NCBI GenBank assembly: GCA_949358305.1
Contig: OX442314.1
Span: forward strand, 26,784,001 to 26,848,000
Direction: 5' to 3'
DNA length: 64,000 nt
Source: Strigamia acuminata
Lineage: Eukaryota
The notes beneath the pieces are model-generated. The model was not told where the DNA came from, searched no databases, and saw nothing but the letters and a program-made list of their open reading frames with translations. This document shows positions 20,189 to 63,415 of the stretch, one piece after another; within the stretch, counting starts at the first letter, position 1, and each line of letters begins with the position of its first letter. The position numbers were made by a program, and so were the translations under genes.

Positions 20189-20224
<36 letters not shown>

Positions 20225-32930: not shown

Positions 32931-33678
32931 ATGTGGGAAAAGTACACTATAACGGTATTATTACGAATGTTATGTTGAAAAACCGAATATATAAAAAACA
33001 AATTCCTTTTTAAAACTGTGTAGTAACCGATTGGTTTTTTTATGTAGTAGTACAGTATATTCTTTAGTGTGTCAAAGCTAGATTGCAGCGAGATCAACGA
33101 GCCGAAATCGTAAATTGTTTATTCAATTTACGAAAATGTATATTAAAAAAAAATTCAGAAAAAACATTCTAATATTTATACTTGTATTAGCCACGTGGAT
33201 GTAAGATATGTTTCAAGTCTCACATGGCAATCATTCAAAGGGTTCAAATTTAGAACTGAATTTAGAACTAAACATACGCCATTATTGTTATAATACCTGG
33301 TAATTAAGAAAAATGTTTTTTAACAGTTGTGTAGCAATTTTGAAACAACTCTGGTATGATGAGCAATGAGAGACCAAACAATAAACCAAAGGCATTTGCC
33401 AAATCACAGAAAAGAGCTTCGAAGCTGTATTTAAGAATTTCAACATATTGCTCGATGAAATTTGTAGCTGGCTTTATTAAAACAAAGGCTCCAATTGATG
33501 CTTCAGGATTCTGAAAATAAAGATTTGTTTGGTGAACAACTTTCTTGCAAGTAGGCCGACAGTCACATTCTCCTTTTCTGCTGATATTCAGAGACAAATT
33601 AATGAATTTTGCCAAGACTTCTTTAGCTTCTGATGCAGACTTGCCAGTGTTGTATCTCGTTCACTAAATCGCGAACTA

Positions 33679-34024
33679 TACTCTGGTTCGACTCAAGAGT
33701 ATACCCTTCTAAGAGCCGCATCACTGGTGTAGTGATCCATAAATGTAGACCCAAACACAAGAAATGGATTCCAACGTGCAGCCATTTTTAATCGATAGAC
33801 TGTAGGTTACTTGATTATATTTTTTTCCAACATCACATGTTATTTGAGGCTGTTCCACAAGTGATTTGATGATTTGATGAAGTGATTTGATGCACAAGAG
33901 GCGCGGCCACGAGCTACGTGAGTCGTAAGTAGGCGAAACTACTTTTCCTAGTGGTAGTAATACAGACTGGAGTTAGGAGTGATGCGGCTCTTAGAAGGGG
34001 ATACTCTTGAGTCGAACCAGAGTA
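33679..34024. mobile_element. TA-target MITE nested in the hAT element
   Basis: About 55-bp TIRs TACTCTGGTTCGACTCAAGAGTAT..., inserted into GAAC(TA)GTTC with TA duplication. Confidence 0.85.
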
Positions 34025-34203
34025 TAGTTCTAGTTCTCGTTCATCACTGTTTTCAATTTTCTGAACTAGTTCTAGTTCCCGTTCACCCCAAAAATCTCAA
34101 AGTGAACTAAGTTCTAGTTCAGTTCTAGTTCAGTTCTAGTTCAGTTCACATTTCCAACATTTCCAACATTTTCCGCTTGCAATTTTTCCGTTTAGTCGAA
34201 CTA

Positions 34204-34885
34204 GGCGGCGTGATTTTACGGGGAACTCGCTGCTCAAGTTTAAATTGCTTTGCAATTTAGTTGCCAGATGGTAATCCGAATGTTCGACCGAATCCCAAAC
34301 CGAGATCATTTTCTCACAATCCTCGCACTGAAAACAATCTTCCGGCACCGGAACGACGTAACTACAACTCGCGTCTCCACTATTCACTCTCGAATTTTCA
34401 AAGTATTTTTTAATCCCAGGCGATTTATCGCTCATTTTATCCGTTTCCGGCGTCCCGGACACCGCACAGGCGCACAATGACGATTTTCGAAGCTTTTGCG
34501 TTCAAATTCTTCCATTTTCGACGCGAAAAATCCTTTGGTCGGAGTCTCCATCGACGTTTCGCTCGAATTCGAGTCCAAAATCTCGCTATTAACGATTTCT
34601 TTGTGGAAAAACGATTTAATATTTGCCATATTCGCTTCGACGTGATCTTGGAATCTTCCCGCGGAAACTCCCAAGCAATAAACCGGTGGAAACCTTAAAA
34701 TCGTTGGCGAGACGTTCGACGACTTCGATCGCGAGTTGGTCGACCCAGTGTTTGATTTCGTCGGGTTTTGTCAGCGCCGATTTGCCGGCGAAGTTTTTAC
34801 TGCATCCGGCCGATTTGGGCAGCTGGCGAGGCGTTACTGTTTCGTTCTCGATTCCTCGGCCCAAATCGAACAACCATGATTGGTT
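34204..34885 (-). pseudogene. POLH: DNA polymerase eta fragment: little-finger start, C-terminal tail, UBZ zinc finger
   Basis: WLFDLGRGIENETVTPRQLPKSAGCSKNFAGKSAL...WVDQLAIEVVERL, then PPVYCLGVSAGRF, FF motifs, and UBZ CEDCEKMISVWDSVEHSDYHLATKLQ. Spread over three frames with an internal deletion. Confidence 0.9.
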
Positions 34886-35139
34886 ATGACATGAAACGTC
34901 CGGTGAACGAACTAATTAACGAACTAGAACGTAGTTCGCGTCAAAAAAACGAACTTTGTTCGTTTTTTTCGTTCTTCAAAAAAAGCGAACTAGTTCGTGT
35001 TCTAAGTTCGCGAACTACGAACTAAGTTCGCGAACGCGAACTATTAGTTCTCGTTCGATACAACACTGAGACTTGCACATGTTTGTGAATGTATTATTGA
35101 TAAATGGTAACCTAGTAGATAATTAAAATTAAAATAATA

Positions 35140-35322
35140 CAGTCGAAACTGTTTATAACGAATAGCGATATAACTAATTGTCGATTTAACGAATACCAAA
35201 AAATCGCTGGTTTGGTTGGCTGGCCATAGAACACCATGTTAAAAAATTTCAATACAACGAATTCTCGTTATAACGAATCGATTTTCGGGTTTCTTGCGAT
35301 TCGTTATAAAGAGTTTCGACTT
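35140..35322. mobile_element. Tc1/mariner-type MITE
   Basis: TIRs CAGTCGAAACT..TTATAACGAA / TTCGTTATAAAGAGTTTCGACTT, TA flanks. Absent from copy B. Confidence 0.8.
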
Positions 35323-35642
35323 TATAATTCAATATGTCATGCGACTGCTAATAACTTACCGGCACGAGATTGATTTGAATAACTGGTGTTGAAAGCATTT
35401 GTCGTGGCATTGTATATATTCTTCTTCCTTTTCAATACATGGGCGTGATTTCAAATTCAGTGAAATTTTCTGCAAGTGTATTGAATTGGTTAAATTACTT
35501 TTAAGTGTTCTTTTTATGTTATGCGATTTTACATTAAAACAAGTAGTTAAACACTAATTTAATATAGCAACTGTATTCAGGTTTTTCTGGAAGGTGTAGG
35601 ATAATATGAGTAAAAAATTTGGCAGGGGAATGTATCCTCTTA

Positions 35643-37051
35643 CCGTATAACCTCGCATACAGTGCAAAATATTTATTGTGAATTTTGGACCTCGAATTGG
35701 GGGGGTCGCACTATACGCACGTAATAAAAAAAAATGTAACATAACGTATGTCCTACGTTTCGTATTTCGTCCGTACTACGTGCGCATTTCGTCCGTATAT
35801 AACTTCAGCCATCGCTGACAACACACAATACAACCATCCAACCGAACGACAATCTAACAATCGAATAATGCAAGAATCCAACAATCCAACCAACCGTGAA
35901 AACTATCCAAGCAAGACGTAAGGGTTTGTCGTTTGAAGCGGGCTTTAAATTACGTGTTGTGGCGTTTGCAGAGAAAAATAATAACTCTGTTGCTGCGAGA
36001 GAATTTGTTCTGTCAGAAAGTAATGTTAGACTTTGGCGTAAACAAAAAACTACACTGCAACAACTGCCCAAAATAAAAATTGCATCATCGCAACACAAAA
36101 TTCTATTCGTTTTCGAGCTCTTCAATTGAAGAAAGGTGAATGCAAGGAGACACTAGGCATTGCATCTTTTTTTGCTTTGCATGGGTGGTGCAACTGGTTT
36201 ATGCAACGCAAAGGATTAACATTGAGACAACGTATGAAAATTTTGCAGAAGTTGCCACAGCAACTTGACGAGAAAGTGGATTCCTTTCAAAAGTTCATAC
36301 TAAATTTACGGACGGTTCATGGGTATGACCTTTCCCAAATCGGTAGTATGGATGAGACGCCGATGTACTTTGAAACGCCTGGCAATAGAACTGTCAATGC
36401 AATTGGTGACAAGACTGTCCTTGTAAAAACAACGGGACATGAAAAAACTCATATTACCATTGTTTTTGCCTGCATGGCTGACTGAGCCAAGTTAAAGCCT
36501 ACGATCATATTTCAAAGGAATATAATCCCAAAGACTTTGACATTTCTACAAGGTGTCATTATTGCCGCCAATCCGAAAGGTTGGATGGATGAAGGTGGAG
36601 TACTATCGTGGCTGGAAACCGGAAATCACCCAAGTCGCCACATGGGTGAAAGAAGCATGGGATTCAATACCATCTGGAATGATTAAACGTTCATTTCTTA
36701 AATGTGGCATTAGTAATGCAATGAATGGAACCGAGGACGACGCCATTTACGAGAGCGAGGATGACAATCAAGATTCTGACAATGACGATGACGACGACGA
36801 CTACACTGCGGACACAATCCCTACAGACGAGTTCATAAAAGAAATGTTCAATGACTCAGAAAAGAAAGAAGAATTTTTTGGATTTTAAAATTTCCTTTTA
36901 CCTAAATAAATAAACTTTTCTTTTTCCATTGTTGTGGCACACCACTAACTTGCATTATACGTGCGTACACCATTTATTACAAAAAGGCGCCTTAAAATGA
37001 GGGGGGGGGGTCGCATTATACGCTGGTCGGATTATACACGAGGTTATACGG
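35643..37051 (+). mobile_element. Degenerate pogo/Tigger-family (PogK-like) DNA transposon
   Basis: TIRs CCGTATAACCTCG, TA TSD. Fragments of a Brinker-type DNA-binding domain (FKLRVVAFAEKNNNSVAAREF), CENP-B HTH end (GWCNWFMQRKGL) and DDE_1 (MDETPMYF, TTGHEK, NPKGWMDE), with stops, frameshifts and deletions. Confidence 0.9.
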
Positions 37052-37069
37052 TAGTTTATTCCTGGGTAA

Positions 37070-37948
37070 TACCATGTTCACACAACTCAATTCCACGGAT
37101 TCGAATTGGAATTCATTAAATAATGTCAGCAGTCTGTAACATCCCATTGTTGCAACTAAAACCCGGTTTGGTTTGATTGAATCACATTTTGGTATCAACA
37201 CAACTCCATCTAAGTAAATACCTGTATCGGAACTGTTCTGTTGGATCAGATCAGATCCAGCCAAACTCGATCCATTGGTTTGAACGGGACTCTATAATGC
37301 GCGCGATATTCTTATCCGCGACGTCGCGGGTAGGAATGTTGCTTCTATCCGTACCCGCGAATTCGCAGATAAGAATATTAAAAGTATTCTTATCCGCGAC
37401 AACATTGGATCACGTTATTTTAATCAGCGACGTCGCGTGTTTTAATAAATATTTTATTCCTATGCGCGACCTCAGTTCTTGTTGTTAGTTAATTAATTTA
37501 TTTTTTGCGTCCCTCTCTGCCCGGCGTTTTTCTCTGCTCGGCACCCCTCTCTGCCCAGCGCCATTCTCTGCCCGGTGCTCCTCTCTCCGCTTGGCATTCC
37601 TCTCTGCCCGGCGCCCCTCTATGCCCGGCGCCCCTGGGTTGCAGCCCAGTTAGCCCAATGATAAAGATGGCCCTGGGCACACCACACACGCTTGGCTGTT
37701 GCCTGCGCCGCAATTACGGGTGCAGCATCCTTCTCTTCCTCATTGGGCACATTCGCCACGGCCGTTGCTGTTGCCGTTGTCGCGCTTATGAATGTTTTCT
37801 CAAGTCGAAGAACGTCGCGGTTACGAATGTACAGCCATTCGTAACCGCGACGTCGCGGGCATAAACAGCGGTGTTATTTTCATACGCGAACGCACGGTTT
37901 GCGTGTAAGAATATCGCGTGCATTGTGGATCACCGTTTGAACATGATA
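37070..37948. mobile_element. PIF/Harbinger-like non-autonomous element
   Basis: TIRs TACCATGTTCACAC / GTTTGAACATGATA. TAA TSD confirmed by the empty site GGGTAAGGTTTAG in copy B. Related sequence inverted at about 43440-43570. Confidence 0.75.
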
Positions 37949-38510
37949 TAAGGTTTAGCCTCGGAATCCAATCCAAACAGGAAACACGAGAAATTCTGGT
38001 TTTTGTTAATCATGTGTTGTATTTTTGGAATTAATCTATAAAAAATTAAAATTATTTGTCATATAAGTATAATATATTTTACTTCGAAAGATGATATTTG
38101 CAGTATTGACATGGTAGAGAAATCGATGTTCCGTCGACTTGTCAGAATAGATTGGATTTTAGCTCCAGGTGGACGAAGATACAACTGCAAAATTAAATAA
38201 TAAAAAAAAACTTTATGCTACCCGATAAATTAAAATGAGAATTTCATCATTTATGCAGCATGTAGTAATGTGAGTGCGGAAAGGCATCATACACTATAGA
38301 TTGGGGAGAAACACATTATGGCGTAGCAAGAAGTCAACGGGCCCGTAACGTAAGCAAGTTGGGTTTGATGGATCCTTTATCACATGTGTAGCTTACAAAC
38401 CAGTAAGATTTTTCGGTACTTACAGGGTCACTTTAAAACCTTCATAGGTCCTAGGCATTTGTGTGAAATTTTGACTGTTTCTTTTGCGAATCTTTTGTAT
38501 TAATCTAGAA

Positions 38511-40037
38511 CAGCGTTTCCCAAACGGTGAGGCGTGCCTCACTGGTGGGGCGCGAGCTGATTATTGGTGGGGCGCACCCATTGCGCACAGCTAAATAAGA
38601 CAAGCTTTTTTTACAAACTAATGTAAAATTTTATGCAAAATTATATAAAATTATGTATAAAATTATACAAAGTTTTATGCAAAATTGTATAAAAATTTCT
38701 TTTTTTCTGTTTAGTACAGTGCAAGACAAAACTTTGGCCCAGTTGGATAAATGATTAAAAAATAAACAATTTTACAAAATATAACCAAACCAATAATAGA
38801 AATGCATTATAATCATGCTGAAATAATGTTACAATAAGTACAAGAGTGATGTCTTTCTCAGAAATAAAAAAAAATAAAAAATTCAAATTTCAACCTTAGA
38901 AATCTGTGACAAAACTTTGGCCTGTTCTTCAAATTTTTAACAAAAATTAAAATCTGTTTAACTTTAATACTTGATTTCTTTTCTACATTGTTTAATAACT
39001 TCAATGCACCTTGTATGCATTGAATCAATTTGTTTTTTAAAACTTTTAGAAGTGATGGACTCCCATGCTTTTTCAATGGATACTGCATTGTCCTGCTGAA
39101 AAATCCACTTTGCTCCAGCCATTCCTCTTCCTTTTTTCCACAAATTCTCCTACAGGACCGCTTAATACATATTTGCATTTTGTCTTCCATTCCAAAAAAC
39201 AATTTCACTTTTTTTCGTGTATCCAAATGCACCCCAAACCATAACAGTTTGGAATGGGCAGAAAAACATGTCTCCTGGACCAATGAGTGGCAAAATGCTG
39301 TGTTCAGTGGTGAAAAAACTTCAGCCTGGATGGCCCTGATGGCTTGAAATATTACTGGCATGGTTTAGGAAAAAATTATGTGATGTGCATGAGTAGGAAC
39401 TTTGGAGGAGAATCTGTTATGGTTTGGATACACAAAAAAAAGTGAAATTGTTTTTTGGAATGGAAGACAAAATGCAAATATGTATTAAGCGGTCCTGTAG
39501 GAGAATTTGTGGAAGAAAGGAAGAGGAATGGCTGGAGCAAAGTGGATTTTTCAGCAGGACAATGCAGTATCCATTGAAAAAGCATGGGAGTCCATCACTT
39601 CTAAAAGTTTTAAAAAACAAATTGATTCAATGCATACAAGGTGCATTGAAGTTATTAAACAATATAGAAAAGGAATCAAGTATTAAAGTTAAACAGATTT
39701 TAATTTTTGTTAAAAATTTGAAGAACAGGCCAAAGTTTTGTCACAGATTTCTAAGGTTGAAATTTGAATTTTTTATTTTTTTTTATTTCTGAGAAAGACA
39801 TCACTCTTGTACTTATTGTAACATTATTTCAGCATGATTATAATGCATTTCTATTATTGGTTTGGTTATATTTTGAAAATTGTTTATTTTTTAATCATTT
39901 ATCCAACTGGGCCAAAGTTTTGTCCTGCACTGTAGTTTATTTTAAAAAAATTTAATACACTGGTAGATGAAGTGGGGCGCAGAAGGTCGCCTTGCTTAAA
40001 AAGTGGGGCGCGATGCTAAAAAGTTTGGGAACCCCTG
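38511..40037. mobile_element. hAT (Charlie-like) MITE hosting a nested Tc1/Tc3 derivative
   Basis: TIRs CAGCGTTTCCCAAAC / GTTTGGGAACCCCTG. 8-bp TSD ATCTAGAA, single copy at the equivalent site in copy B. Confidence 0.9.
38717..39932. mobile_element. Foldback-like Tc3/Tc1 derivative with about 510-bp inverted arms
   Basis: CAGTGC...GCACTG ends, TA TSD. Arms 38717-39226 and 39423-39932 are near identical. Transposase remnants WQNAVFS, LDGPDGLKYYWH, RNFGGESVMVW, WIFQQDNA. Confidence 0.9.
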
Positions 40038-43000
40038 ATCTAGAAAGTAAAATAAGTGAACCCCCCCCCCCCCCTTGAATTCCTGCTAGCATAAAATCCT
40101 GAGTTCTGACTCGTTCAAATCGGGTTGTTTCGATTTAACCAAGTTTGGCAAAAGAGTTTAATCATTGATGGTATGTCGTCGACTAGTCGTAATCGTCGAC
40201 GATTTGACCCGAGCTCATTTTTTTGTAGCGGTAAAAAATTGTTCCGTTATCTTACCTGCCACAATCCATCAGAACAGTCATTACTCTTTCCTTTTATAAG
40301 AGCAATAAAGATTGCAGATGCAGCTCCAATGTACTTTAGAGGCTCTAAAACAAAATAAAAAGGATCTTCAATTCTTTATTTTATGTTATTTTTATAACTT
40401 TCTCTGTACGTGTAATATATTCCAAGCATGTTCCCGAATGCAGTTCTAAGGCATTGGTAATGTACGTGTCAATTGTTGAATCTTTCTCGAGTATCTGGAA
40501 TATTGTGAATGGCAGCATTAATTATAATCTACTGATTGCATAAACCAAAAAGCAAAAAATTAAAATTAAATAAAAATCATATCCCGTTTCCAACTGCAGT
40601 GGTTTTAAAATTTGGAAGCATACTGTAACGGAAATTAAAAAAATTTAAATCTTTCTACTGACTGTGAGTTTGTTCACTTTAAGCACTCTTTAAAGAGCAC
40701 GTGAGTTAAAATCCTTCAGGTTCAGTTATTCAGTTTATGGTTTCAATAAGCAATAGCAATTGGCACACGGAAAGACAAATACCCAGCAAGCTAAGAATAA
40801 ACATGAATAACACTTACCTCTGGAACATATTTCATTAAGGGTTTATTCAATTGAGGCTTTTGATATCTCCATAATGTTTCGAGTGATGGTTGCTTATCAC
40901 TGTTCATTAGATCAATGAAATGAATTTTGCATGGATCTTTCATAACCTTCTTTGCATATCGTTCTCTGTATGTGGTCATTAGTATGCCATCGTTGCAGGC
41001 AATTATATTAGGCATATAAATGGTGTCGTTTTCTTGAACTTTAACTACGACTTTGATTGGTTCGCTGTAGTATAGCTGTATTTTCGTTGCAGTTAAATAT
41101 ACGGCAATTATGGTATTTGTCAATAACACAATTAAACGCACGAAACGACCAATCGATGCCATTTTATGTGAAGTAATGTGGCTTGTTTTAGACATTACTG
41201 TCTCATGTATCTTCGCTATTTTGCTTTTCAGATTTCTGTTTGATTGACGAAGAGGCTGATAATTGTATCTTCTAATTTTCTCATACAGTTGCTTAATCAA
41301 TGCTTGTCCAATTGCTACCAAGGATAACAATGATAATCCCAATGAAAATCCCAAATTTCCGCCAAAGTCTACTAGCAATGCGATTATGTCGTAGTCAGGC
41401 ACTTCAGTCATCACTATGAATGTTGTATCAGTTTGTTTTATTCTGATGACAATTGTATTCTCATTGGGTGATCTCGCTGCGCCTATTTCCAATATGTATA
41501 TTTGCTTCGTGCAAGGTCTCAAGCAACCACAATCCAATGTCGCTTTTGTTGATAATGCAGTTTTGAATGTGTTCTCATGAATTTTAGCAACAATTTTTTC
41601 ATTTGTTACGTCGCTGCAATCCTTAATTGTATTGTTAAAATCCATATATGGTAGCCTGAAATTAAAAGGGCTTTTTATTTATATCAGCTGTGACGGTATG
41701 ATCTTACAAGTTAGACATGGCCGCCTGGGGACTGGATACAATGGGATGGGACGCATACTCATGTTTAATAAGACAAAGGAATACAGATTGTTGGGTTGTT
41801 GGCCTATATTAATCGTTGTCTAGGGGTTAGAGTCTTCCGTCTACCCACGAGTTGGCAGTGCCACTAAGGCATGCCACACCAGCAACCGACCCGTCGCACA
41901 CAGGGAGGAATTCCCATGAATGACGTGTCCGGTTGGATATAACTATTGTAACGGTTGTAAAACCGTATAGTTTGCGATTTCCTGCTTGATAGTGTTGTTT
42001 GATTAAAAGCGAGCAGTTCAAATGAATTAAAAGGATTGTAAATAATTCTAAATTCGTATAAATAAATATATTACATTTATTGGATTAATCAGCAATCATT
42101 ATACTATACAGTATACAGGGTGTCCCAAAAGTTTGAACCTCCCCAAGTAATTTCCAAAATACTTGAGATATCAGAAAACTGAAAAATAAATTCATAGGGG
42201 AAATCATTCATTGCGAATCTGATGGCATCCTCAAATTTGACTTCAAAGGTCATTTTCAAAGTCATTCACTTGCTAACTTCTAAACCAATCAGGTTAGAGC
42301 AAAATTTCCAATTAAAAAGTGGTAGAACATGGCCTAATTAGTCTAAAAACATGATTAATCCAATTGGGACATTTATTTTTTAGCAATTTGCTTTTTCGCG
42401 ATTCCTTTTTTTGCATATGTCCACTTGGCGCCAGTTGGAGTTTGCATTTAAGCGATTCCCGAATCCAAATCTAGTGTTTTCTGATGTACCGGTAGCGCTT
42501 TTTTGGATTCGCGACAGCTTTTTTCGTGGAAAATCATGCGCCCCGATTTCAAGTCTGATAAACCTGATTATTGACTAACCGGCATTCAGGGTCCTCTTTT
42601 CGAGCCAAACAATCTACGTAACACTTTATACTATCTTCTTCGTTTGAATTGCACCCAAGGTGTTTTGACGGTAGGAAATTGTACTGGAAATTAAAATGTT
42701 AGTTACGGTTATTTTAATTCTCGTTCAATTTTGTATAACACACATCAAAAACACAAAGGCAATGTCTAGTGCCAGGGTAAAATAACCTCTTCTGAATCAT
42801 CCTAATCTATTCTCAATCCAGCAATAAATTTTTAGCGACTGAGAAAACTTTCTTCTAGCAAGAAGAACATGTAAATCAGGATAATGTTCGATTTAGTAAC
42901 AAATGAGGGCTTTGTCTTTAGTTTGAAATGATAATGCGAGCATATGCTCTTAATTACAGTAGAAGAACGAAAAAAAAATAAGTAAATAATTAACTAGATT

Positions 43001-44520
43001 TTTCCCTGTCAGTAGACATTTGCAAACATACATATATGTACAAATAGATACCTGTCGCGAATGATAATTCACTAACAACTTATTGCCCATATCTGCTGGT
43101 GCTGTATATTCAAAATTCATTAGAGGATTTATGATCATTACCTATCGGAGACAAATTTTATTTAGCAATAAGTAATAGGCGCATTCAAAAATGCATGGTC
43201 AACTTGCAGTTAAACAGGTTTTGCCGTTTACCGTATATATCTTCCATTTGTCCGCAGGCCTCTATTTCCCCGCGGACCTCAATTAACGCACGAGGAAAAA
43301 AATCGGCGATGTCAATAGCGCGCAGACCTCGATCAACTTGCAGGGGCGAAACGTTTTGCATACGTTTCGGCAGAAAAGTACCGAAACGCATGAAAACGTT
43401 TCATTTCTCACCCTTTTTGGCTGTTTTTCGTTCACATACGTTCAAAAAGGTGATTCATAATGCGCGCGATATTTTTACGCGCGAACCGTCCGTTCGCGCT
43501 TACGAATGGCTGTGTATTCGTAACCGCGACGTTCTTCGATTGCAATGAGTATTCATAAGCGCGACAACGCGTCCGCGTTACGTTCCGCGATTCGTCCGCG
43601 ATTCGTCCGCGTAACGTTCCGAATAAACGCTGGGTTTGTTTAAACGCCAGGTTTATTGTAAATGTGTGATTACGTTCGGATAACGTTTTTAATCTACCGT
43701 ACACGTAATGTACGCTCTGGTAGTTGTTGTTTTTGATGCACTCATGTTTGGTCTTCTTGTCCATTTACCAGCAGACCCGGATGTGCAATATTTCACTCAC
43801 TTGTCAGAATCTTAATTTTTTGGGCAATCAGTGGGTTTTAATGCATTTTTTTTTACAACAAATGCATTGTTTTACAACAATTGGAATTGACAATTGTACA
43901 ATTTTTGTAACAGATGACATTTATGTACGTATAAACTAGCCTCCTGTGTCAATTTTGATCCTTAGAAAAATTTTTTTGGATGAAATTTGTGACTGGCTTT
44001 ATAATTACGCAACGTTTCAAAAAGGCAAAAATTGAATATTTTGCTAAGTTATGACGCAAAATATGAATTATATAAAGAGGCAATAAATGTTGTTAACTAT
44101 AGGCTTGTCCAATATATTAAATAAAATCTAGTACTTTAAAGAAAAAATACCAGGGGGAGGGCTTGACCCTTACCCCCGGTCTAGCCCGAGACCTGATCCC
44201 CAGTCCAATTTTAAGGAACTGAGAAATAAAAACACAGGAGTTCAGAAATAAAACTTTATTTACTGAAAAGCATCGAAGAGGCATGACGGATCGACTTATT
44301 GGCGATCTGAAATTCAATAAAATAAAATCAATAAACCAATAAATGTTGTAAGGGTGGCAAAATGCTTTCAACAAGGGAGCATAAATCAACAGAAGGGTGG
44401 AAATAACAAAATTTATTGCCTCTTTATATAATTCATATTTTGCGTCATAACTTAGCAAAATATTCAATTATATTACAGCTAGGCAATAAATGTTGTTAAC
44501 TATAGGCTCTTTGTAGCCTC

Positions 44521-53184: not shown

Positions 53185-53392
53185 TTTTTGATTATGGGTT
53201 GACATTTTCTAGCTAGTGAATAAGTATTACTAATTCTTTTTGATTATGGGTTGACATTTTCTAGCTAGTGAATAAGTATTACTAATTCTTTTTGATTATG
53301 GGTTGACATTTTCTAGCTAGTGAATAAGTACTTGTATTACTAATTCTTTTTGATTATGGGTTGACATTTTCTAACCACTCAATAAGTATTAC
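53185..53392. repeat. 52-bp tandem repeat, about 4 copies
   Basis: TTTTGATTATGGGTTGACATTTTCTAGCTAGTGAATAAGTATTACTAATTCT. Confidence 0.9.
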
Positions 53393-53518
53393 TAAAAAAA
53401 TTCATTGCGTTGGGGATAAAGTAGGTTGCTAAAATGTTCGAGTATCTTTGCATTAATCTGCAGAATTTGATTTAGAACTCAACATATGGTATACCACAAT
53501 TGATATAATACCGGGTAC

Positions 53519-56500
53519 TTAAGAAAAATAATTTTTAACAGTTGTGTAGCAGTTTTGAAACAACTCTGGTATGATGAGCAACGATAGACCAAACAATAAA
53601 CCAAAGGCATTTGCCAAATCACAGAAAAGAGCTTCGAGGCTGTATTTTAACATTTCAACGTATTGCTCGATGAAATTTGTAGCTGGCATTATTAAAACAA
53701 AAGGTACAGTTGTTGTTTTAGGATCCTGAAAATAAAGATTTGTTTGGTGAATAACTTTATTGCAAGTAGGCCGACAGTCACATTCTCCTTTTGTGTTGAT
53801 ATTCAGAGACAAATTAATGAATTTTGCCAAGACTTCTTTAGCTTCTGATGCAGACTTGCACGTGTTTGTAAATGTGTTAGTGGTAAATGGTAACCTAGTC
53901 GATAATTCAAATATGTTTTCACGTGTCATACGACTGCTAATAACTTACCGGCACGAGATTGATTCGAATAACTTGTCTTGAAAGCATTTGTCGTGGCATT
54001 GTATATATTCTTCTTCCTTTTCAATACATGGACGTGATTTCAAATTCAGTGAAGTTTTCTGTAAGTGTAGAGAATTGGTTAAATTACTCTTAAGTGTTTT
54101 TTTCCTGTTATGCGATTTTACATTACAACAAGTAGTTAAACAGTAATTTATAGCTACTTTATTCAGGTTTTTTTGGAAGGTGGAGGATAATATGAGTAAA
54201 AAAATTGGCGGGGGATTATTAGTTTATTCCTGGGTAAGGTTTAGCTTCGGAATCCAATCCAAACAGGAAACACGAGAGATTCTGGTTTTTGTTAATAATA
54301 TAATCATAATATCAAAATATTTAGATTGCCTAATCATGTGTGGTATTTTTGGAATTACCGTATTCTATAAAAAATGGAAATTATTTGTCGTATAAGTATA
54401 ATATATTTTACTTCGAAAGATGATATTTGCAGTATTGACATGGTAGAGAAATCGATGTTCCGTCGACTTGTAAGAATAGATTGGATTTTAGCTCCAGGTG
54501 GACGAAAGTACAACTACAAATTTAAAATAAAAAAATAAAAAATTGAAGCTATTCGATAATATAAAACGAGACATTCATTATTTACACAGCATGTAGTAAT
54601 ATGAGAGAACCAGATTATGCTGTGGCGTAGCAAGAAGTCAACGGGCCCGAAAGCAAGTTGGGTTTGATGGGCTCTTTATCACAGATGCAGCTTACACACC
54701 AGTAAGATTTTTCGATACTTACCTTCTTAAGCCCTAGGAATTTGTGTAAAATTTTGACCGTTTCTTTTGCGAATCTTTTGTATTAATCTAGAAAGTAAAA
54801 TAAGTGTACCCCCTCCCCCCCCCCCCCCTTGAATTCCTGCTAGCATAAAATCCTGAGTTGTGACTCGTTCAAATCGGGTTGTTTCGATTTAACCAAGTTT
54901 GGCAAAAGAGCTTATAGTAATCATTGACGGTATGTCGTCGACTAGTCGTAATCGTCGACGATGTGACCCGAGCTCATTTTTTTTTGCGGTAAAAAATCGT
55001 TCTGTTATCTTACCTGCCACAATCCATCAGAACAGTTACTCTTTACATTTATAAGAGCAATAAAGAATGCAGATGCAGCTCCAGCGTACTTTAGAGGCTC
55101 TAAAACAAAATAAAAAGGATCTTCAATTGTTTATTTTATGTTATTTTTATAACTTTCTCTGTACTTGTAATATATTCCAAGCATGTTCCCGAATGCAGTT
55201 GTAAGTCATTGAAACTGTGAGTGACATTTGTTGAATTTAACCCGAGTATCTGGAATATTGTGAATTTCAGCATTAATTATAATCTACTGAACCTGAAATA
55301 GATTGCATAAACAAAATAGCAAAAAAAAAATCGTATTCTGCCTCCAACTGCAGTGGTTTTTGAACTTGGTTGCATACTACAGTAGTAATGTAACTGAAAC
55401 TGACAAAATTGAAATATTTTTACTCAGTTTGTTCAATTTAAACACTCTTTATAGAGCACTTGATTTAAAATCCTTCAGGTTCAGTTATTCAGTGTATGGT
55501 TCCAATAAGCAATAACAATTGGCACACAGAAAGACAAATACTCAGCGAGCTAAGAAATAAACATGAATAACACTTACCTTTGGAACATGTTTCATTACGA
55601 CTTTATTCAATTGAGGCTTTTGATATCTCCATAATGTTTCGAGCGATGGTTTCTTATCACTGTTCATTAGATCAATGAAATGAATTCTGCATGGATTTTT
55701 CATAATCTTCTTTGCATATCGTTCTCTGTATACGGTCATTAGTTTGCCATCGTTGCAGGCAATTATATTAGGCATGTAAATTGTATCGTTTTCTTTAACT
55801 TCAACTATGACTTTGATTGGTTCGCTGTAGTATAGCTGTATTTTCGTTGCAGTTAAATATACGGCAATTATGGTATTTGTCAATAACACAATTAAACGCA
55901 CGAAACGACAAATCGATGGCATTTTATGTGAAGTAATGTGGCTTGTTTTAGACATTACTTTCTCATGTATCTCCACTATTTTACTTTTAAGGTTTGTGTT
56001 TGATTGACGAAGAGGCTGAGAATTGTATCTTCTAATTTTCTCGTACAGTCGCTTAATCAATGCTTGTCCTATTGCTACCAAGGATAACAATGATAATCCC
56101 AATGAAAATCCCAAATTTCCGCCAAAGTCTACTAGCAATGCGATTATGTCGTAGTCAGGCACTTCAGTCATGACTATGAATGTTGTATCAGGTTGTTTCA
56201 TTTCAATGACAACTGTACTCTTGTCGGGTGATCTCGCTGAGGCTACTTCCGTTATGTATATTTGCTTCGTGCAAGGTCTCAAGCAACCACAATCCAATGT
56301 TGCTTTTGTTGATAATACATGTTTGAATGTGTTGCCATGAGTTTTAGCAACAATTGTTTTATTTTTTACCTCGCTGCAATCCCTAATTTCATTGTTAAAA
56401 TCCATATATGGTAGTCTGAAATTTAAAAACTCTTTTTATTTATATCAGCTGTGGCAGCTGTGTCAGCCTGGGGACTTTATACCATGGGTGGGATGCATAC

Positions 56501-59500
56501 TCATGTTAAATAAGACAAAGGACTCCAGATTGATGGGTTGTTGGCCTTTATTATTGTTGTCTAGGGGTTGGAGTCTCCAGTCTACCCATGTGTTTGGCGG
56601 TGCCATACCAGCACCGACCCGTCACACATGGGGAGGGATCCCCATGAATGACGTGGCCGGTTGGACATAACTATTTTGTCGCACTTAACCGTACAGCCCA
56701 TGTAACTGCTCATGGAGGTTGTGGTAGATCAACTATCTCACCACTGAGCGTCACCGTGGTGAATAGGGAAGAGAGCAGAGTCAGCACAGAGCACGACTTC
56801 TCTTGCTGGCTTTAGGACTTCGCTTTACATGTCTGTCTCTGTCGAGACTCAGCGCTCTTCTGTCCCTACACCACTCCGCTCCTTCCTTCCCCTTACTGGC
56901 GAATCGCCTAAGGGCGAATTTCCAAAATTCGCCGTTGGAAACATATTTTGGTGTTTCCAATGGCGAAATGAATAAAATTCGCCATTGGAAACGTTTTTTG
57001 AGTGCAGGAATGTTTCATTTCTACCATTTGCCATTGGAAACATATTTTCCTGTTTCCAAGGGCGAAAGTGGCAAATTTGTTTTTAATGTAAAATTCTCTA
57101 TTGTATTTTGGGTATTTCTTCTTCCAATTCCTAAGAAGGGCTAACCGCGTACCTAACCTTACTGGTTTTTTGATGCAAAACCATTTTTTGGGACGGCTTG
57201 TCGCGGTAGATAATGTGGCAAAATTCAACATCCATATATTCGCCATTGGAAATGCAAAATCCTTTCCAATGGCAAAATTCAACATACAGTCAAAACTCTT
57301 TATGACGAATCGCAAGGAACCCGAAAAATCGATTCAGCCAACCAAACCAGCCATTTTTAGGTATTCGTTATATCGATATATCGTTATATCGCGATTCGTT
57401 ATAAAGAGTATCGACTGTACCAATATTCGCCATCGGAAACGCAAAACCGTTTCCAATGGCGAATTTCAACATACACATTCGCCATTGGAAACGTTTTTGC
57501 GTTTCCAATGGCAAATTGTTTTTAATGTTTACCAATTCGACATTATAAAGGTCCAAAAGCCGTCCCAATGGCGAATTGGGAGAAATTTGTCATTGAGACT
57601 GCTTTTGGACAGAATAACATAGAAATTCGCTATTCGTAGGAATGGACAGATTACGGCACCCCTGGGTCATATCACTCCGTGAGGAGGAGTGACCTTGGGG
57701 CCATTGGGCAGTGTATGTTAGTGACGCAAGTCACCATTGGGTGGCCAAGCGGTCACACAGCAATAGGAAGAAATGTGTTTTTATTTTTATTTTAAAGTTA
57801 CATTTCAAGTTTGATAAACCTGACTATACTGACTAACCGGCATTCAGGGTTCTCATTTCGAGTCAAACAATCTTCGTAACACTTTATACTATCTTCTTCG
57901 TTGGAATTGCACCCAGGGTGTTGTGATGGTAGGAAATTGTACTGGAAATTAAAATGTTAATTCTCAAAGACTTACAATTTTGTATTTACCACATCAAAAA
58001 CACAAAGGCAATGTCTAGTGCCAGGGTAAAATAACTTCTGAATCATTCTAATCTATTCTCAATGTAGCAACAAATTTGTAGCAACTGAGAAATCTTTCTT
58101 GCAAGAAGAATATGTCAACCACAATAATGTTTGTTTTATTAACACATCAGAGTTTTGTCTTTAGTTTGAAATGATAACGCGAGCATACAGTATGCTCTTA
58201 ATTACAGCATAAGAACGGAAAAAAATAGGCCGAGGATATTCTTACGTACGTACGTAAGAATAGCGTATTGGCTATTCCTACGTACGTACGTAAGAATAAC
58301 GTTTGCCCGACGTGCCGCTATTCTTACGTACATACCTACGTACGTACGGGCAGGGATGAATGAAACCCACCAGCATGTCGCGCTCAGGATTTGCTCCTCA
58401 AAACAAACAAAATGAAACCAGCGTTTTGTTTTTTTATTTTCTTTTTTTAATAATGGAATATTTTGGTCATTTCAGACATTGAATTCAGTCATTTAGGTCA
58501 TTTCAGACATTGAATTCAGTCGTTTTGGTCATTTCAGACAATTTCAGACATTGAATTCAGTCGTTTTGGGCAACACTACTAACAATAGAATCATTCACAA
58601 CAAATTATTACAACAAAACTAAACCTAAACTAACCTCATTGATTGGGTCGAAATAGCGCGACACCACACGTGTAGGTGGTATATAATCCTCCCACATACC
58701 GGTACGTAAGAATAATGACCCCCCCCTGGCGGCCCGCTATGTACGTAAGAATAGCCATACGTTATTCTTACGTACGTACGTACAAATATACAGTTTTTCA
58801 GGGGCCGAGGATGGGCTTTCCTGCAATTTTCGGTATGTACGTAAGAATAGCGTATCGGCTATTCTTACGTACGTACGTAAGAATAGCCACGGCGAAAAAG
58901 GCAACAAAAGAAGTAAATAAATAACTAGATTTTTCCCTGTCAGTAGACATTTGCAAACATATAACTTCGGTAGATACCTGTCGGCAATGATAATTCACTA
59001 ACAACATATTGCCCATATCTGCTGGTACTGAATATTCAAAAGTCATTAGAGGATTTATGGCCATTGCCTATCGGAGACAAATTCTATTTAGCAATAAATA
59101 CTAAGCGCATTCACAAATGCGTGCTTAACTTGCAGTTAAACACGTTTTGCTGTTTAAATGTCGTGCGCATGCACACTGCGACTGAAAACAGACTAAATTA
59201 GTCGTTATTTTTTACGTTAGATTGGAATAACAGTTTATAAACTGCTGTTTAAATATGTTGCTTAAGATTTAGTTTAATGTAAATGACTATAAAAATTTCC
59301 AGTAAACTAATCATGTCCATATTAGGTCACAACCGTAATACCCAGCTTTGGAGAGCATGCTCTATCGAGTTTGACCAGATCTGGGGATATGATTGGCTGG
59401 TTCATTTGATGCCGTGCCATAAAAGTTGAATTCCTGCTCGTTTTATCCAGCACTGCCAGAAAATTTAGAACGGGTACCCGTATGAAAAAAATACCGTAGT

Positions 59501-62500
59501 ATGATTGCATACTATTCATTGTCAATGGCTAGTTCATCCTAAGTTGAGTAAAATGTATGGCAAATGCTGGATAATTCAAATTTTCTGGCAATTGGGGATA
59601 AATTTGTTGGAGGGGGGGGGGGGAATAAATTTATTAGGGAAAACTAAAGTTAGGGGAGTGACATAATTTAATTGGGGGGGGGTTGAGTGGGGGAAATTAA
59701 AATCATATTAGGGGGGTAAATGAGTCTGAAATGGGGGGAAAATAATTTGTCGCCTTTCCGAACAATAGGTACCAAACCGGTAATCGATTACAATGTCTAA
59801 TGCGATCTAATGCATTTAATGCAATTATGGAGTTCTGATCTGCTTTTAAGTGTCAGTACACAAGTGAAATGGCTCTGCCAATGGGAGAAGGCCCAACTTA
59901 TAGTGAGTTACCGGTATGTACAGTCTGTACCCTCACTCTAGGCTGGCAATTGAAATTGTGACTAATTTCGTGTTTTGCTACTACCGTCTTCCCCCGAATA
60001 TGACACCATGGTGTTGTATTCGTCCAAAATTATGCAAGTTTGACAAAGAAGTAAAATTCGTAAAAACTCTATGAATTTGTATTTATTACTCTGTTTAAAA
60101 AAACAAACAAGTAATACAAGTTAACAAAAACAACTATAAAAAAAACACTAACTGAAAACGTACGTGAGCTATAATGACAGCAAACGTACGAAAAACGTTC
60201 AGTGCACCTTTTGGATGCATATACTGTACTGTATGTTTTTAATATTTTTAGAAAAATTTGAATATAACACCATGGTGTTATAGCTGAAGTGGTGTTATAT
60301 TCGAATTTTTGGTCAATGTTTTCAAACTTGCCATTTTGACCAAAACTCGAATACAACACCATGGTGTTATATTCGGGGGAAGACGGTAGGTGAAACACCA
60401 GACATCAACAGGTGATCATACTTGTATAATACTTGTATAGCAGACAAAGGTATATAAGTATTATCACCTGTTGATTTCTGGTGTTTAACCTAGTGGCAAA
60501 ACACGAAATTACTCACAATTTCAATTGCCAGCCTAGAGTGAGGGTCCAGTTTTTTGAACACGACTGTACATACAATATTAAACATCTCATCTATCTTCGA
60601 TGTTAAATCGTTCGTTATGTTACTTGGGAGGAGTTTGTTTTTCCGTAATTTGCCTGGAACAATTTAAAGGAAAGTAAAGTAAACACCCTGTATTCTCACC
60701 ATCAGAGCTGGTTTCTCGCAGCTTCCATTTTTCTGAAACTGGTACATCATAGAGAATCCCTCAGCCATGGACAAATCTAAAAATTTCAATGGTATAACTT
60801 GAAACTTATTTACTGTATCCAGATCAGATAAAAATCCTTTCCTCACTTAATGTTGTAGCAGTTATTGGAGATATTTTTAATTTGATGGTAGATTGGCAGA
60901 AAATAGCACATTCTATTGTTATTAGTGAGTTTGCGGTTGCCAATTGTTCCTTATAATTATGAGTTACAAGCTCATAATTATAAAAATGGACTTATAACAT
61001 AACGTAACTCCTCAACTTTTACACTGTTTTGTAAAATAAGGGAGCCAATCAGATCGCTTAACACTATTTGAAGCTCCTCCCACTATTGCAAATGGCGCTG
61101 AAGGTGCTGATGGAAATTCAAAATGGCTGCCTGACCTGTTTCAACATTCAGCCTCAATCACAATTTTTTTCTGCCATCGAAGGATAGAAACAACTAAAAT
61201 CATTCCAGGTAAGCAAATAAATAAACTGGAAGACAATTTTATGTCTGAAAAATGTCAAATTAGTAAAACTACAGATTTTCATTTTCTTTTGCATATGGAT
61301 TTGTTCTACCATTACATGCAAAGGATTTGTACTGTTAACATGGTATTTATAAGTATAATTTATAAAATATATTTGTTGTACCGCAAGTGCCTATTTCAAC
61401 AGGGAATCATAATTATAATTATGAGCTTGTAACTCATAATTATAAGCAACAATTGGCAACCGCAAACTCCCTATTGATAATGAAGCATCGTTACAACATT
61501 TGTTATCAAGGTGTAATTTCTGAACCAACAATTCTAGACTAAAAATGTTAATCGAAAATATTGTCTAGCATTGTTGATTAAGAATTTAAAACTGGGAAGA
61601 CAATGTCGCAACGATACTACAAAAACAACAGATGTCTCATTGGATTTGTCATGTCCAATTTCCTACCAATTTTAGTTTTATCTTGGGCGTAATGGCTATG
61701 TGCGAGCATGACGAGGAAAGGACTTTTTTCTGCTTTGTAGAGCAGTTTTTATTACTTGTTTTGAAGATTAAAGCAACGCCCATCATTGTATTTTTTTCAC
61801 TGATCTCTACATTTGAATTAGTTGTTACCATTTTGCCATTATTTTTAGTCATTTTAAAAATAGATTTCTTGTACTAAAAAAAGAAATATCTCACTTAAAT
61901 ACAATAAAGGAATAAAGCGAATCAAAAAAGGAAATGAGGTGCTGAACTTTACTTTTACATATTTGTTTAAAGCCCATTTACAAACGGATCGTGGTAATTA
62001 GATCGAATAAAACAAGAGTGAAATCGGATTTTGCTCTCATTAATGTCATTAAAATTGAATGGATTTTTATGCCACCTGGTAGATTAACTTAAAACAGCTA
62101 AACTGCAGGGAAGTTTCTTTTGTCCACCACTGTACATGCTTTGTCAACACATACAAGTAGTATGTACATTTTTCTCTGATGATGAGCATCTTGCCTGCGG
62201 ATTGCTTCACTTTAGTGACGCCGTTTTTAAGGTGCTTAAAAACTTCAGTTAGTTTAGGTTAGTTTAGGTGTGGTTAGTTTAGGTTAGGTCATGAAGCTGC
62301 ATTTGCGATTAATCAGAGATGTAGCATGTGCGTGGACGCTGGCCCACGAGCCTACAGTAGGGGGCCTATGAGGGATGAAGGGGGTCCGTAGAGATTGAGT
62401 GGTGACCATATTTTTTTCAGCTTTTTAGGCTTTTAGAGTATCAAAATCTTAGCTATGGCTCTGCTAAGGGCCCGTCATCCAACTTGCACACAGGTCACAG

Positions 62501-63415
62501 ACCCATTGGTGTATTACTACGCCGCTGATCACGAGTACTGTATTTACGCTGTAACAGCAGTGTGTACCTACTTCTATCTATGCTGTAACAACAGTGTGCA
62601 CCTATCTATGCTGTAACAACAGTGTGCACCTATCTATGCTGTAACAACAGTGTGCACCTATCTATGCTGTAACAACAGTGTGCACCTATCTATGCTGTAA
62701 CAACAGTGTGCACCTATCTATGCTGTAACAACAGTGTGCACCTATCTATGCTGTAACAACAGTGAACACGTATCCATGATATGTAATTGCATCCCTAAGT
62801 ACCCAATTCACTTTAAGCGACGATTTGACAGAACCAAATAATCGCATAAAATGAGGGATACCTTTATTTGCATTTTGAAATAACAGATTTTCTTACTAAA
62901 TTGATAAACAAATAAAACATGCTTACTTGATGTGCTTCTACAAGCTCCAAGTTGTTTAGCATACTTGAATCTAGCCACAACTGAGTGTAATTAAAAGTCT
63001 TGGTAGCACTCTTTATAATCCCTTTCACTGCATTCCCACAATCTAAAAGATCCTCTATGCCACTTTTTATTGGTCGCCAATATGGAGCCAAAGTTGCTGT
63101 ATCTAATCCTGCCAACATTAAGCCAGCTATTTTTAGTTCTTTCGTGTCTTTATATTCAATCTCAACTTTAATTGGGTTAGTCAAGTAGTGTTGCACTCTT
63201 CGGTATGTCTGATAACAACAAATGGTCAAGCAAAGCGTTACTGCAACCAACCATGAAATGCGAACTGCAACGGATTTCTGTTTGTCCAATAATTTATTCA
63301 ATATCGGCAGGGATGTCTTCTCGATTGAACTTGCAATTTCTTTTCTGCAGAGAAGCCGAATGCGATTTTTTTTCATATTGATAATTCTTAAATTTTCGTT
63401 ACGTCTCATAATCAT
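53519..63415 (-). CDS. Divergent DEG/ENaC (pickpocket-like) channel with two fused subunits, copy B, about 824 aa. Exons 63415-62927, 61873-61756, 60776-60700, 59067-58978, 57941-57838, 56415-55578, 55249-55165, 55099-55014, 54513-54412, 54058-53949, 53894-53519
   Basis: TM1a RISWLVAVTLCLTICCYQ..HYLTNPIKV; thumb CYEDCL..CRLPYM..CGCLRPC; TM2a LLVDFGGNLGFSLGLSLLSL; TM1b RLIVLLTNTIIAVYL..YYSEPIKV..MPNIIACN; thumb CHDKCF..CRLPF..CDCRPTC; TM2b LFCDLANAFGLLFGLSLLII. All introns GT-AG, total 2475 nt in frame. Exons 2-3 are the least certain. Confidence 0.85.
57287..57417. mobile_element. Tc1/mariner-type MITE (same family as 35140-35322), nested in a CGCCATTGGAAA-rich element (about 56900-57640)
   Basis: TIRs CAGTCAAAACTCTTTATGACGAATCGC / GCGATTCGTTATAAAGAGTATCGACTG, TA flanks. 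Confidence 0.8.
58229..58893. mobile_element. MITE with palindromic TACGTACGTA subterminal repeats
   Basis: Inverted ends GCCGAGGATATTCTTACGTACGTACGTAAGAATAGC / GCTATTCTTACGTACGTACGTAAGAATAGCCACGGC. Absent from copy A. Confidence 0.8.
59921..60566. mobile_element. Palindromic MITE with a nested pogo-like MITE (59984-60386)
   Basis: Outer arms ACCCTCACTCTAGGCTGGCAATTGAAATTGTGA and its reverse complement. Inner TIRs CCGTCTTCCCCCGAATAT with TA TSD. Confidence 0.85.
60923..61473. mobile_element. MITE with about 60-bp TIRs
   Basis: GAGTTTGCGGTTGCCAATTGTT..TTATAATTATGAGTTACAAGCTCATAATTATAA and its reverse complement. Confidence 0.8.
62548..62764. repeat. 28-bp minisatellite (CTATCTATGCTGTAACAACAGTGTGCAC), about 7 copies
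   Basis: Direct tandem copies, no spacers. Confidence 0.92.

What the first reader, a model, noticed from the sequence alone, without database searches (positions are those of the whole stretch)
53519..63415. Natural concatemer: one gene encoding two fused DEG/ENaC subunits (4 TM)
Seen: one uninterrupted 838-nt exon (56415-55578) encodes a DEG/ENaC TM2 (LLVDFGGNLGFSLGLS), a roughly 50-aa cytoplasmic linker, then a new TM1 and post-TM1 motif (YYSEPIKV..MPNIIACN). Each half has its own Cys-rich thumb and TM2. Intron phases are 0,1,0,0,2 in both halves, including an intron inside the Arg of CR|LP. The same fusion exon is open in copy A, which argues against an assembly artefact. Established: DEG/ENaC/ASIC subunits normally have two TMs and form trimers. 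Inference: two tandem genes fused (last exon to first exon). A dimer cannot make a homotrimer alone, so it would need 2+1 assembly with a single subunit, linked trimers, or linker cleavage.
Basis: partly seen in the sequence, partly recalled or inferred. Interest (0 to 1): 0.9.

Follow-up and report, generated by a model that had tools for sequence, protein, structure and literature searches.

The report
Naturally fused double-subunit DEG/ENaC channel family
An intact-looking gene, likely from a centipede, encodes two sodium-channel (DEG/ENaC) subunits joined in one chain, which would fill two of the three places of a normally three-subunit channel; many related centipede gene models share this join, and some crustacean proteins join three.

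Summary
Confirmed. Eleven GT-AG exons give an open 824-aa protein with four hydrophobic helices and intron phases 0,1,0,0,2 twice. Exon 6 carries the end of one Pfam ASC domain, a ~45-aa basic linker and the start of a second. The fusion is old and family-wide: 25 of 87 hits span the whole junction, and 15 of the 17 looked up are Strigamia maritima models. First and second repeats group by position, not by gene, and their similarities co-vary across genes. A fold of one paralogue gives two full DEG/ENaC subunits. Decapod and unnamed proteins carry three repeats, probably a separate origin (AU p 0.003-0.02). Copy A is a 5'-incomplete recent duplicate with a broken last exon. Most likely the chain fills two of three trimer positions and a single-repeat subunit completes it (0.45). 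Expression, assembly and currents are untested. Ten literature searches found no description; the scan's index listed no such finding.

The parts
62927..63415 (-). Exon 1 (aa 1-163): N-tail, TM1 of repeat 1 (about 63277-63212), start of ectodomain
   Evidence: ATG, GT donor, Pfam ASC 4-58
61756..61873 (-). Exon 2, phase 0-1
   Evidence: AG/GT sites, open frame, aligns to exon 7; donor chosen among 8 GT candidates by phase symmetry
60700..60776 (-). Exon 3, phase 1-0
   Evidence: AG/GT sites, open frame
58978..59067 (-). Exon 4, phase 0-0
   Evidence: AG/GT, open; same size in copy A
57838..57941 (-). Exon 5, first part of Cys-rich thumb of repeat 1, ends in CR| (phase 2)
55578..56415 (-). Exon 6, the fusion exon: rest of thumb and TM2 of repeat 1 (about 56150-56052), cytoplasmic linker (about 56051-55917), TM1 of repeat 2 (about 55916-55839), start of ectodomain 2
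   Evidence: Pfam end-of-domain then start-of-domain; PDB hits PDPNaC1/BRTNaC1 in the same permuted order; 25 of 87 hits span it
55165..55249 (-). Exon 7, phase 0-1, carries HSGTC motif; weak GTACAG donor
55014..55099 (-). Exon 8, phase 1-0
54412..54513 (-). Exon 9, phase 0-0
53949..54058 (-). Exon 10, first part of thumb of repeat 2, ends in CR| (phase 2)
53519..53894 (-). Exon 11: rest of thumb, TM2 of repeat 2 (about 53632-53558), stop codon
   Evidence: Pfam ASC 338-453
33304..43141 (-). Copy A: segmental duplicate with exons 4-11 only; exons 4-10 open (472 aa); fusion exon at 41655-40818
   Evidence: self-BLAST, tblastn, codon comparison
33645..35068 (.). Insertion splitting copy A exon 11; 8-bp target duplication and 12-bp terminal inverted repeat (hAT-like by recall)

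Best explanation
The gene encodes two complete DEG/ENaC repeats in one reading frame, likely made as one 4-helix membrane chain that would occupy two of the three positions of a trimeric cation channel, with the third position likely filled by a separate one-repeat subunit. Shown: gene structure, two ASC repeats, basic linker, family-wide conservation of the junction, position-specific repeat clades, two full folds in a paralogue's model. Inferred: TM2 of repeat 1 ends in the cytoplasm and the ~45-aa linker reaches TM1 of the neighbouring position, as in engineered concatemers. The fixed order would lock an asymmetric pore: first repeats keep the DxGGNxG helix, while 5 of 6 matched second repeats lose the GG. 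The third subunit would be a one-repeat paralogue (S. maritima has two such models beside this clade, P0039 and P0078) or a one-repeat splice form, which the matched intron phases allow. A sensory role is a weaker inference, from family expansion, faster ectodomain change and the antennal relatives BRTNaC1 and PDPNaC1.
For: Open 824-aa model, 4 TM, symmetric phases. Junction span from TM2 Asp to post-TM1 Pro is 89-117 aa in all 21 database proteins aligned and 104 in both window copies. Repeat-position groups: 2 changes each for N and C in the 99-row tree; one clade each (N 98, C 86 SH-aLRT) in the 65-row tree with long or redundant rows removed. Identity matrices of N and C repeats correlate over 17 genes (Pearson 0.82, 0 of 5000 permutations; Spearman 0.24, 16 of 5000; same nearest neighbour in 13 of 17). 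Between copies A and B, nonsynonymous changes are 8/250 sites in TM2-linker-TM1 vs about 40/410 in ectodomain parts of exon 6 (Fisher p 0.002); exons 4-10 have no stop (1.2% of 3000 neutral simulations) and one in-frame indel vs 5 indels in 304 nt of intron 6. AlphaFold model of paralogue P0009: pLDDT 73.9, pTM 0.69, both halves match whole subunits (BRTNaC1 Z 21.5, rmsd 5.4, 333 aligned, residues 426-783; ASIC1 Z 15.0, rmsd 4.5, 307 aligned, residues 53-384). Closest solved relatives are trimers (PMC12714832, passages). Engineered trimeric ASIC concatemers form functional trimers (PMC10329638, passages). All five five-exon skips give open 415-426-aa one-repeat products.
Against: No transcript, protein or current for this gene was seen. 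Nothing identifies the third subunit. An engineered two-subunit ASIC1a fusion gave currents alone in oocytes (PMC4529235, passages), so a one-repeat partner may not be needed. Overall pN equals pS between copies (0.077 vs 0.074), so purifying selection on amino acids is not shown gene-wide. Repeat 1 has a degenerate post-TM1 motif (IAGLMLAG) and lacks the GxC cysteine (MGVAL). The S. maritima sequences are predicted models, many partial. A second tree (87 rows) split each of N, C and the triples in two. The fold is of a paralogue, not of this protein, and I could not read the inter-repeat geometry.
Confidence: 0.45

Rival explanations
1. The two-repeat chain assembles with itself: two chains with one repeat left outside the pore, or three chains making two tethered trimers.
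For: Engineered 2xASIC1a fusions were functional alone (PMC4529235, passages). Two-repeat models far outnumber one-repeat models of this clade among the hits (at least 15 vs 2 named S. maritima models), though the query was the junction and so favours them.
Against: Leaves a repeat unpaired or needs paired pores; neither was tested. The decapod three-repeat proteins fit plain trimer counting.
Confidence: 0.25
2. The chain is a polyprotein or alternative-transcript device: the linker is cut, or transcripts start or stop in exon 6, and free subunits form an ordinary heterotrimer.
For: Basic linker; in-frame Met at 446 and 459; engineered concatemers shed smaller products (PMC4529235, PMC10329638, passages). 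Poly(A)-like hexamers at 56363 and 55607 in exon 6.
Against: The linker is predicted cytoplasmic, out of reach of furin-type proteases (recalled). No stop after TM2 of repeat 1; no GT(A/G)AG donor in exon 6. No shared cut motif is visible and length stays at 89-117 aa. One hexamer lies before TM2 and the other after TM1 of repeat 2, so neither would yield a clean subunit.
Confidence: 0.12
3. The family architecture is real but this copy is unexpressed or decaying, or my small-exon model is wrong.
For: pN about equal to pS between copies; degenerate motifs in repeat 1; copy A broken; small exons have no individual Pfam hit.
Against: All 11 exons open with GT-AG sites and mirrored phases; constraint on the junction and lack of frameshifts; the two cysteines lost in repeat 1 are, by recall, a disulfide pair, which fits paired loss.
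Confidence: 0.1
4. Two chains form a four-repeat, pseudo-tetrameric channel, as two-pore K+ channels do.
For: Even repeat number; one biochemical paper argues for tetrameric ASIC1a (PMC4529235, passages).
Against: Solved relatives are trimers (PMC12714832); each repeat matches the standard subunit fold; related proteins have three repeats.
Confidence: 0.05

Closest known systems
Centipede BRTNaC1 (PDB 8YMR/8YMW/8YMX; PMC9974506) and PDPNaC1 (PDB 9JF7; PMC12714832), Scolopendra antennal DEG/ENaCs
   Same: Best solved-structure matches by sequence and by fold of a paralogue; compact ectodomain; PDPNaC1 also lacks the HG motif.
   Different: One repeat (431 and 421 aa), two TM; PDPNaC1 is a homotrimer. 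Identity only about 20%, so their heat or proton gating cannot be transferred.
ASIC / ENaC / FaNaC / pickpocket (Pfam ASC PF00858)
   Same: Per repeat: two TM, Cys-rich thumb, TM2 with Asp and G-x-S.
   Different: Here two repeats share one chain, subunit order is fixed by the gene, and the two TM2 helices differ in a conserved way.
Engineered ASIC concatemers (PMC4529235, PMC10329638)
   Same: Head-to-tail subunits joined by a cytoplasmic linker are functional.
   Different: Artificial, keep full tails plus a synthetic linker; the natural linker is ~45 aa in total.
Uncharacterised Strigamia maritima two-repeat models (UniRef T1ITA9, T1JD34, T1ITL7, T1J963, T1IPM9 and others)
   Same: Same junction and repeat order; T1ITA9 is the nearest (44% over exon 6; sister in both repeats, SH-aLRT 99).
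   Different: Database entries named 'uncharacterized'; I found no paper noting the architecture.
Decapod three-repeat proteins (Halocaridina rubra KAK7028032.1, KAK7013173.1; Petrolisthes KAK4303610.1, KAK3861602.1; unnamed P0057, P0094-P0098)
   Same: Head-to-tail ASC repeats with position-specific clades.
   Different: Three repeats, a whole trimer's worth; a joint origin with the centipede family is rejected at AU p 0.003 and 0.021 with the wider Strigamia clade, under a model that errs about 5 in 71.

Membership tests
DEG/ENaC superfamily (per repeat) | Pfam ASC homology at both ends of each repeat | tested here: met
   Exon 1, both parts of exon 6, exon 11; the start of repeat 2 is under the cut-off alone (20.9 bits, E 2e-4)
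DEG/ENaC superfamily (per repeat) | Two TM helices flanking a large ectodomain | tested here: met
   Hydropathy peaks 47-68/390-414 and 460-485/788-812; all 9 NxS/T sites fall in the ectodomains. Hydropathy only, no dedicated topology predictor
DEG/ENaC superfamily (per repeat) | Cys-rich thumb | tested here: met
   8 Cys per repeat with matched spacing
DEG/ENaC superfamily (per repeat) | TM2 with Asp and G-x-S | tested here: met
   DFGGNLGFSLGLS and DLANAFGLLFGLS; the second lacks the usual GG
DEG/ENaC superfamily (per repeat) | Post-TM1 FPxxTxC motif (motif recalled) | tested here: inconclusive
   Repeat 2 MPNIIAC fits; repeat 1 IAGLMLAG is degenerate
DEG/ENaC superfamily (per repeat) | Hand-shaped ectodomain fold | tested here: inconclusive
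   Met for both repeats of paralogue P0009; the window's own spliced protein was not folded
ASIC/ENaC in the strict sense | Pre-TM1 HG motif | tested here: not met
   Repeat 1 has TSLPI, repeat 2 TSHI/TSHK, no HG; PDPNaC1 lacks it too, so this does not exclude the superfamily
Canonical DEG/ENaC subunit | One repeat per chain, two TM in all | tested here: not met
   Two repeats, four TM
DEG/ENaC superfamily | Trimeric assembly | not tested
   A 2+1 complex exceeds the 1000-residue limit of the complex tool; no job sent
DEG/ENaC superfamily | Cation current, amiloride block | not testable with these tools
   Needs electrophysiology
Strigamia-type two-repeat family (defined here) | Junction in one frame, 89-117 aa, each repeat inside its positional clade | tested here: met

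The most novel reading that the evidence does not exclude
Arthropods evolved gene-encoded concatemeric DEG/ENaC channels at least twice: a large centipede family of two-repeat 'tuning' chains that pair with a shared one-repeat co-subunit (or their own exon-skipped form), and decapod three-repeat proteins that are complete single-chain trimeric channels, the DEG/ENaC counterpart of the step from tetrameric to 24-TM voltage-gated channels.
Probability: 0.4. Interest if true: 0.87.

Novelty: new variant of a known kind. Interest (0 to 1): 0.74.

Why it matters
The papers I read treat DEG/ENaC subunits as two-helix proteins that assemble freely into trimers, and laboratories build artificial concatemers to fix subunit order. 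A natural, old, expanded family of two-repeat chains, plus three-repeat proteins in decapods, would give ready-made channels with fixed, asymmetric pores. It makes stoichiometry and position-specific roles directly testable: a two-repeat chain cannot make a plain trimer alone, so whichever route it takes is informative. It also changes how this family should be counted in arthropod genomes, where such models are easily split or dismissed as mis-annotations, and it points to an unexplored candidate sensory receptor family in centipedes.

Tried and rejected
No whole genome is held, so other copies and one-repeat partners in this species could not be sought. Word-index search with exon 6 against 490-2000-aa proteins: none of 1607 candidates passed; with the family alignment only 3 hits among 7854; both are insensitive here. 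Sequencing runs: no RNA holder listed. Contigs of X1-X3 cover all 30 bins of the gene, X6 12 of 30; no listed piece spans TM2-linker-TM1, and summed depth is no copy number, so nothing is drawn from it. A closer look at exon 6 in those runs was not obtained, so independent bridging of the junction stays open. Single-sequence fold of P0006 failed (pLDDT 33.7). ESM Atlas gave only one-repeat-sized ASC clusters for exon 6 and no answer for P0057. Complex prediction not run: 2+1 exceeds the size limit and would pass by likeness to solved trimers. Rejected: gene-caller fusion of neighbours (junction lies inside one exon; repeats co-vary); recent self-duplication (AU p 0.0003); copy A as independent functional evidence; weak NPA, Viral_Hsp90, UCR_hinge, Carbam_trans_C and DUF2195 Pfam hits (all below cut-off); P0058 and P0030 as unrelated hits. 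Rows dropped from trees: 10 multi-repeat, redundant or oversized proteins and short fragments; rows under 230 aa; 22 further long-branch or redundant rows. Literature: 10 searches and term look-ups in PMC5203786, PMC8438182, PMC7067487, PMC4244043 and PMC12714832 found no mention of natural fused DEG/ENaCs. Vizueta et al. 2020 is not held, most subscription papers are outside the library, and I opened no supplements, where gene-model notes could mention such fusions.
Full report
Observation. I rebuilt the gene on the minus strand from splice sites and frames: 63415-62927, 61873-61756, 60776-60700, 59067-58978, 57941-57838, 56415-55578, 55249-55165, 55099-55014, 54513-54412, 54058-53949, 53894-53519. 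All ten introns are GT-AG, the product is 824 aa without internal stop, and phases run 0,1,0,0,2 twice. Four hydrophobic stretches appear at 47-68, 390-414, 460-485 and 788-812. Pfam ASC matches exon 1 (model 4-58), the first part of exon 6 (333-450), the second part of exon 6 (18-107, below cut-off alone) and exon 11 (338-453); the eight small exons gave no ASC hit singly. The best PDB hits of exon 6, centipede PDPNaC1 and BRTNaC1, match in the same permuted order, C-terminal part first. The halves are 23% identical over 381 columns (E 6e-13) and share an 8-cysteine thumb pattern. The end-of-subunit to start-of-subunit junction lies inside one 838-nt exon, so it cannot come from a gene caller splicing neighbours together.

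Copy A. It spans 33304-43141, is about 87% identical over the central 1.9 kb, and holds exons 4-11 only; tblastn finds no second exon 1-3 in the window. Exons 4-10 are open, but exon 11 is split by a 1.42-kb element with an 8-bp target duplication and 12-bp inverted ends. It is most likely a recently disabled duplicate. Between copies pN equals pS overall (0.077 vs 0.074), which does not show gene-wide purifying selection. However, the TM2-linker-TM1 segment has fewer replacements than the ectodomain parts of exon 6 (8/250 vs about 40/410, Fisher p 0.002), exons 4-10 have no stop (1.2% of 3000 neutral simulations; 8.9% for exon 6 alone) and a single in-frame indel, against 5 indels in 304 nt of intron 6.

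The family. A full HMMER scan with exon 6 gave 87 hits; 25 align across the whole junction (query start at or before 90, end at or after 220). Of these 25, 17 were looked up: 15 are Strigamia maritima models, one is Halocaridina rubra, one (P0011) is an unnamed 241-aa protein on a 1154-nt ENA contig, which likely means a single open frame across the junction; 8 were not looked up. The nearest is T1ITA9 at 44%, so the window is likely a centipede other than, or a gene unannotated in, S. maritima; this is inference. The span from the TM2 Asp to the post-TM1 Pro is 89-117 aa in the 21 database proteins aligned and 104 here, always lysine/arginine-rich. After cutting proteins into repeats, first and second repeats group by position: 2 label changes each among 99 rows; one clade each (98 and 86 SH-aLRT) among 65 rows with long or redundant rows removed; a middle tree of 87 rows again needed 2 changes each. 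Sub-groups mirror each other and the identity matrices of the two repeats correlate over 17 genes (Pearson 0.82, 0 of 5000 permutations; Spearman 0.24, 16 of 5000). Holding the window's two halves together is rejected (AU p 0.0003). So one old fusion, or internal duplication, was inherited as a unit through many gene duplications; deep nodes are only moderately supported and all trees were quick searches. TM2 differs by position: 16 of 17 first repeats read DxGG, while 5 of 6 matched second repeats do not. The window's first repeat has Val before the Asp, where the other 16 have A, S, C or T; by recall this is the degenerin site.

Structure. The spliced window protein was not folded. Paralogue P0009 (T1JD34), folded with a 28-row alignment, reached pLDDT 73.9 and pTM 0.69, with a short helix in the linker. 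Whole DEG/ENaC subunits align to residues 43-388 and to 421-788, best BRTNaC1 (Z 21.5, rmsd 5.4, 333 aligned) and PDPNaC1 (Z 20.1, rmsd 3.7, 316 aligned). The pTM hints that the repeats pack on each other, but I could not read the geometry.

Three-repeat relatives. Halocaridina (P0022, P0025) and unnamed P0057, P0094 and P0096 have three Pfam ASC stretches; Petrolisthes P0060 and P0091 have three TM2 motifs with a short middle repeat. P0057 and P0094-P0098 (1245-1307 aa) come from contigs of 4.2-5.3 kb, which leaves little room for introns, so these are likely transcripts or intronless frames. Repeats 1, 2 and 3 each form a clade and together one clade (90, 99, 96; 95). A common origin with the centipede repeats is rejected at p 0.003 and 0.021, modest evidence. 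A further group of near-identical repeats (P0003 and P0004, both S. maritima; P0014 and P0015 not looked up) shows two or three TM2 motifs per model.

Mechanism. Shown: two repeats in one frame with a conserved junction. Inferred: one 4-TM chain whose linker is cytoplasmic, filling two positions of a trimer. The close relative PDPNaC1 is a homotrimer (PMC12714832, abstract and passages), BRTNaC1 is an antennal heat-gated two-TM channel (PMC9974506, passages), and engineered trimeric concatemers work (PMC10329638, passages). I favour completion by a one-repeat subunit (0.45): S. maritima has two one-repeat models next to this clade (P0039, P0078), and the mirrored phases let any five consecutive exons be skipped in frame to give a 415-426-aa single subunit. 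Against this, an engineered two-subunit ASIC1a fusion conducted alone (PMC4529235, passages), so self-assembly with a spare repeat or tethered trimers stays likely (0.25). Cleavage or split transcripts (0.12), a decaying copy (0.10) and a four-repeat channel (0.05) follow. That the chain is a real product at all I put near 0.85.

Novelty. Ten full-text searches and term look-ups in PMC5203786, PMC8438182, PMC7067487, PMC4244043 and PMC12714832 (passages only) found no report of natural DEG/ENaC concatemers. One relevant survey was not held, subscription papers are mostly missing and no supplements were opened. The sequences sit in databases as uncharacterised. The scan's index listed eight partial word matches, none a fused gene, and nothing. 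I rate it a new variant of a known kind, interest 0.74.

Noticed in passing
P0022, P0025, P0057, P0060, P0091, P0094-P0098: Three-repeat DEG/ENaC proteins in decapods and unnamed Logan contigs: candidate single-chain trimeric channels, each repeat position its own clade.
   Followed up: partly
P0003, P0004, P0014, P0015, P0031: A separate group with near-identical repeats, two or three per model (three looked up are S. maritima): possibly a younger second concatenation, or model artefacts.
   Followed up: partly
window 33645-35068: Element inside copy A exon 11 with 8-bp target duplication and 12-bp inverted ends; it carries a UBZ zinc-finger frame (34139-34501, PF18439, E 4.5e-9), by recall like the C-terminus of DNA polymerase eta, so possibly a captured gene piece.
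   Followed up: partly
window 44521-49214: Copia-type LTR retrotransposon, 188-bp LTRs 99.5% identical (recent), coding region spread over separate frames; it sits inside a larger element with inverted ends near 44066-44213 and 50810-50960.
   Followed up: partly
window 38715-39934: 513-bp inverted repeat pair, 98.8% identical, in copy A intron 8: nested transposon-like insertion.
   Followed up: no
window 35805-36888: Pogo/Tc5-like transposase remnants in copy A intron 9 (HTH_Tnp_Tc5 E 0.005, below cut-off).
   Followed up: partly
window about 15900-31200, + strand: Exons of a patched-like gene (recognised by recall from translations); RhoGAP gene end at about 1092-1800 (PF00620, E 8.5e-10).
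   Followed up: no
window 56132-56130 (aa 388): Val at the recalled degenerin position of repeat 1 in both copies, where 16 other first repeats have A, S, C or T; may favour constitutive opening.
   Followed up: partly
window 62541-62778 and 53185-53395: Short tandem repeats in intron 1 (about 32-nt unit) and just 3' of the stop codon.
   Followed up: no
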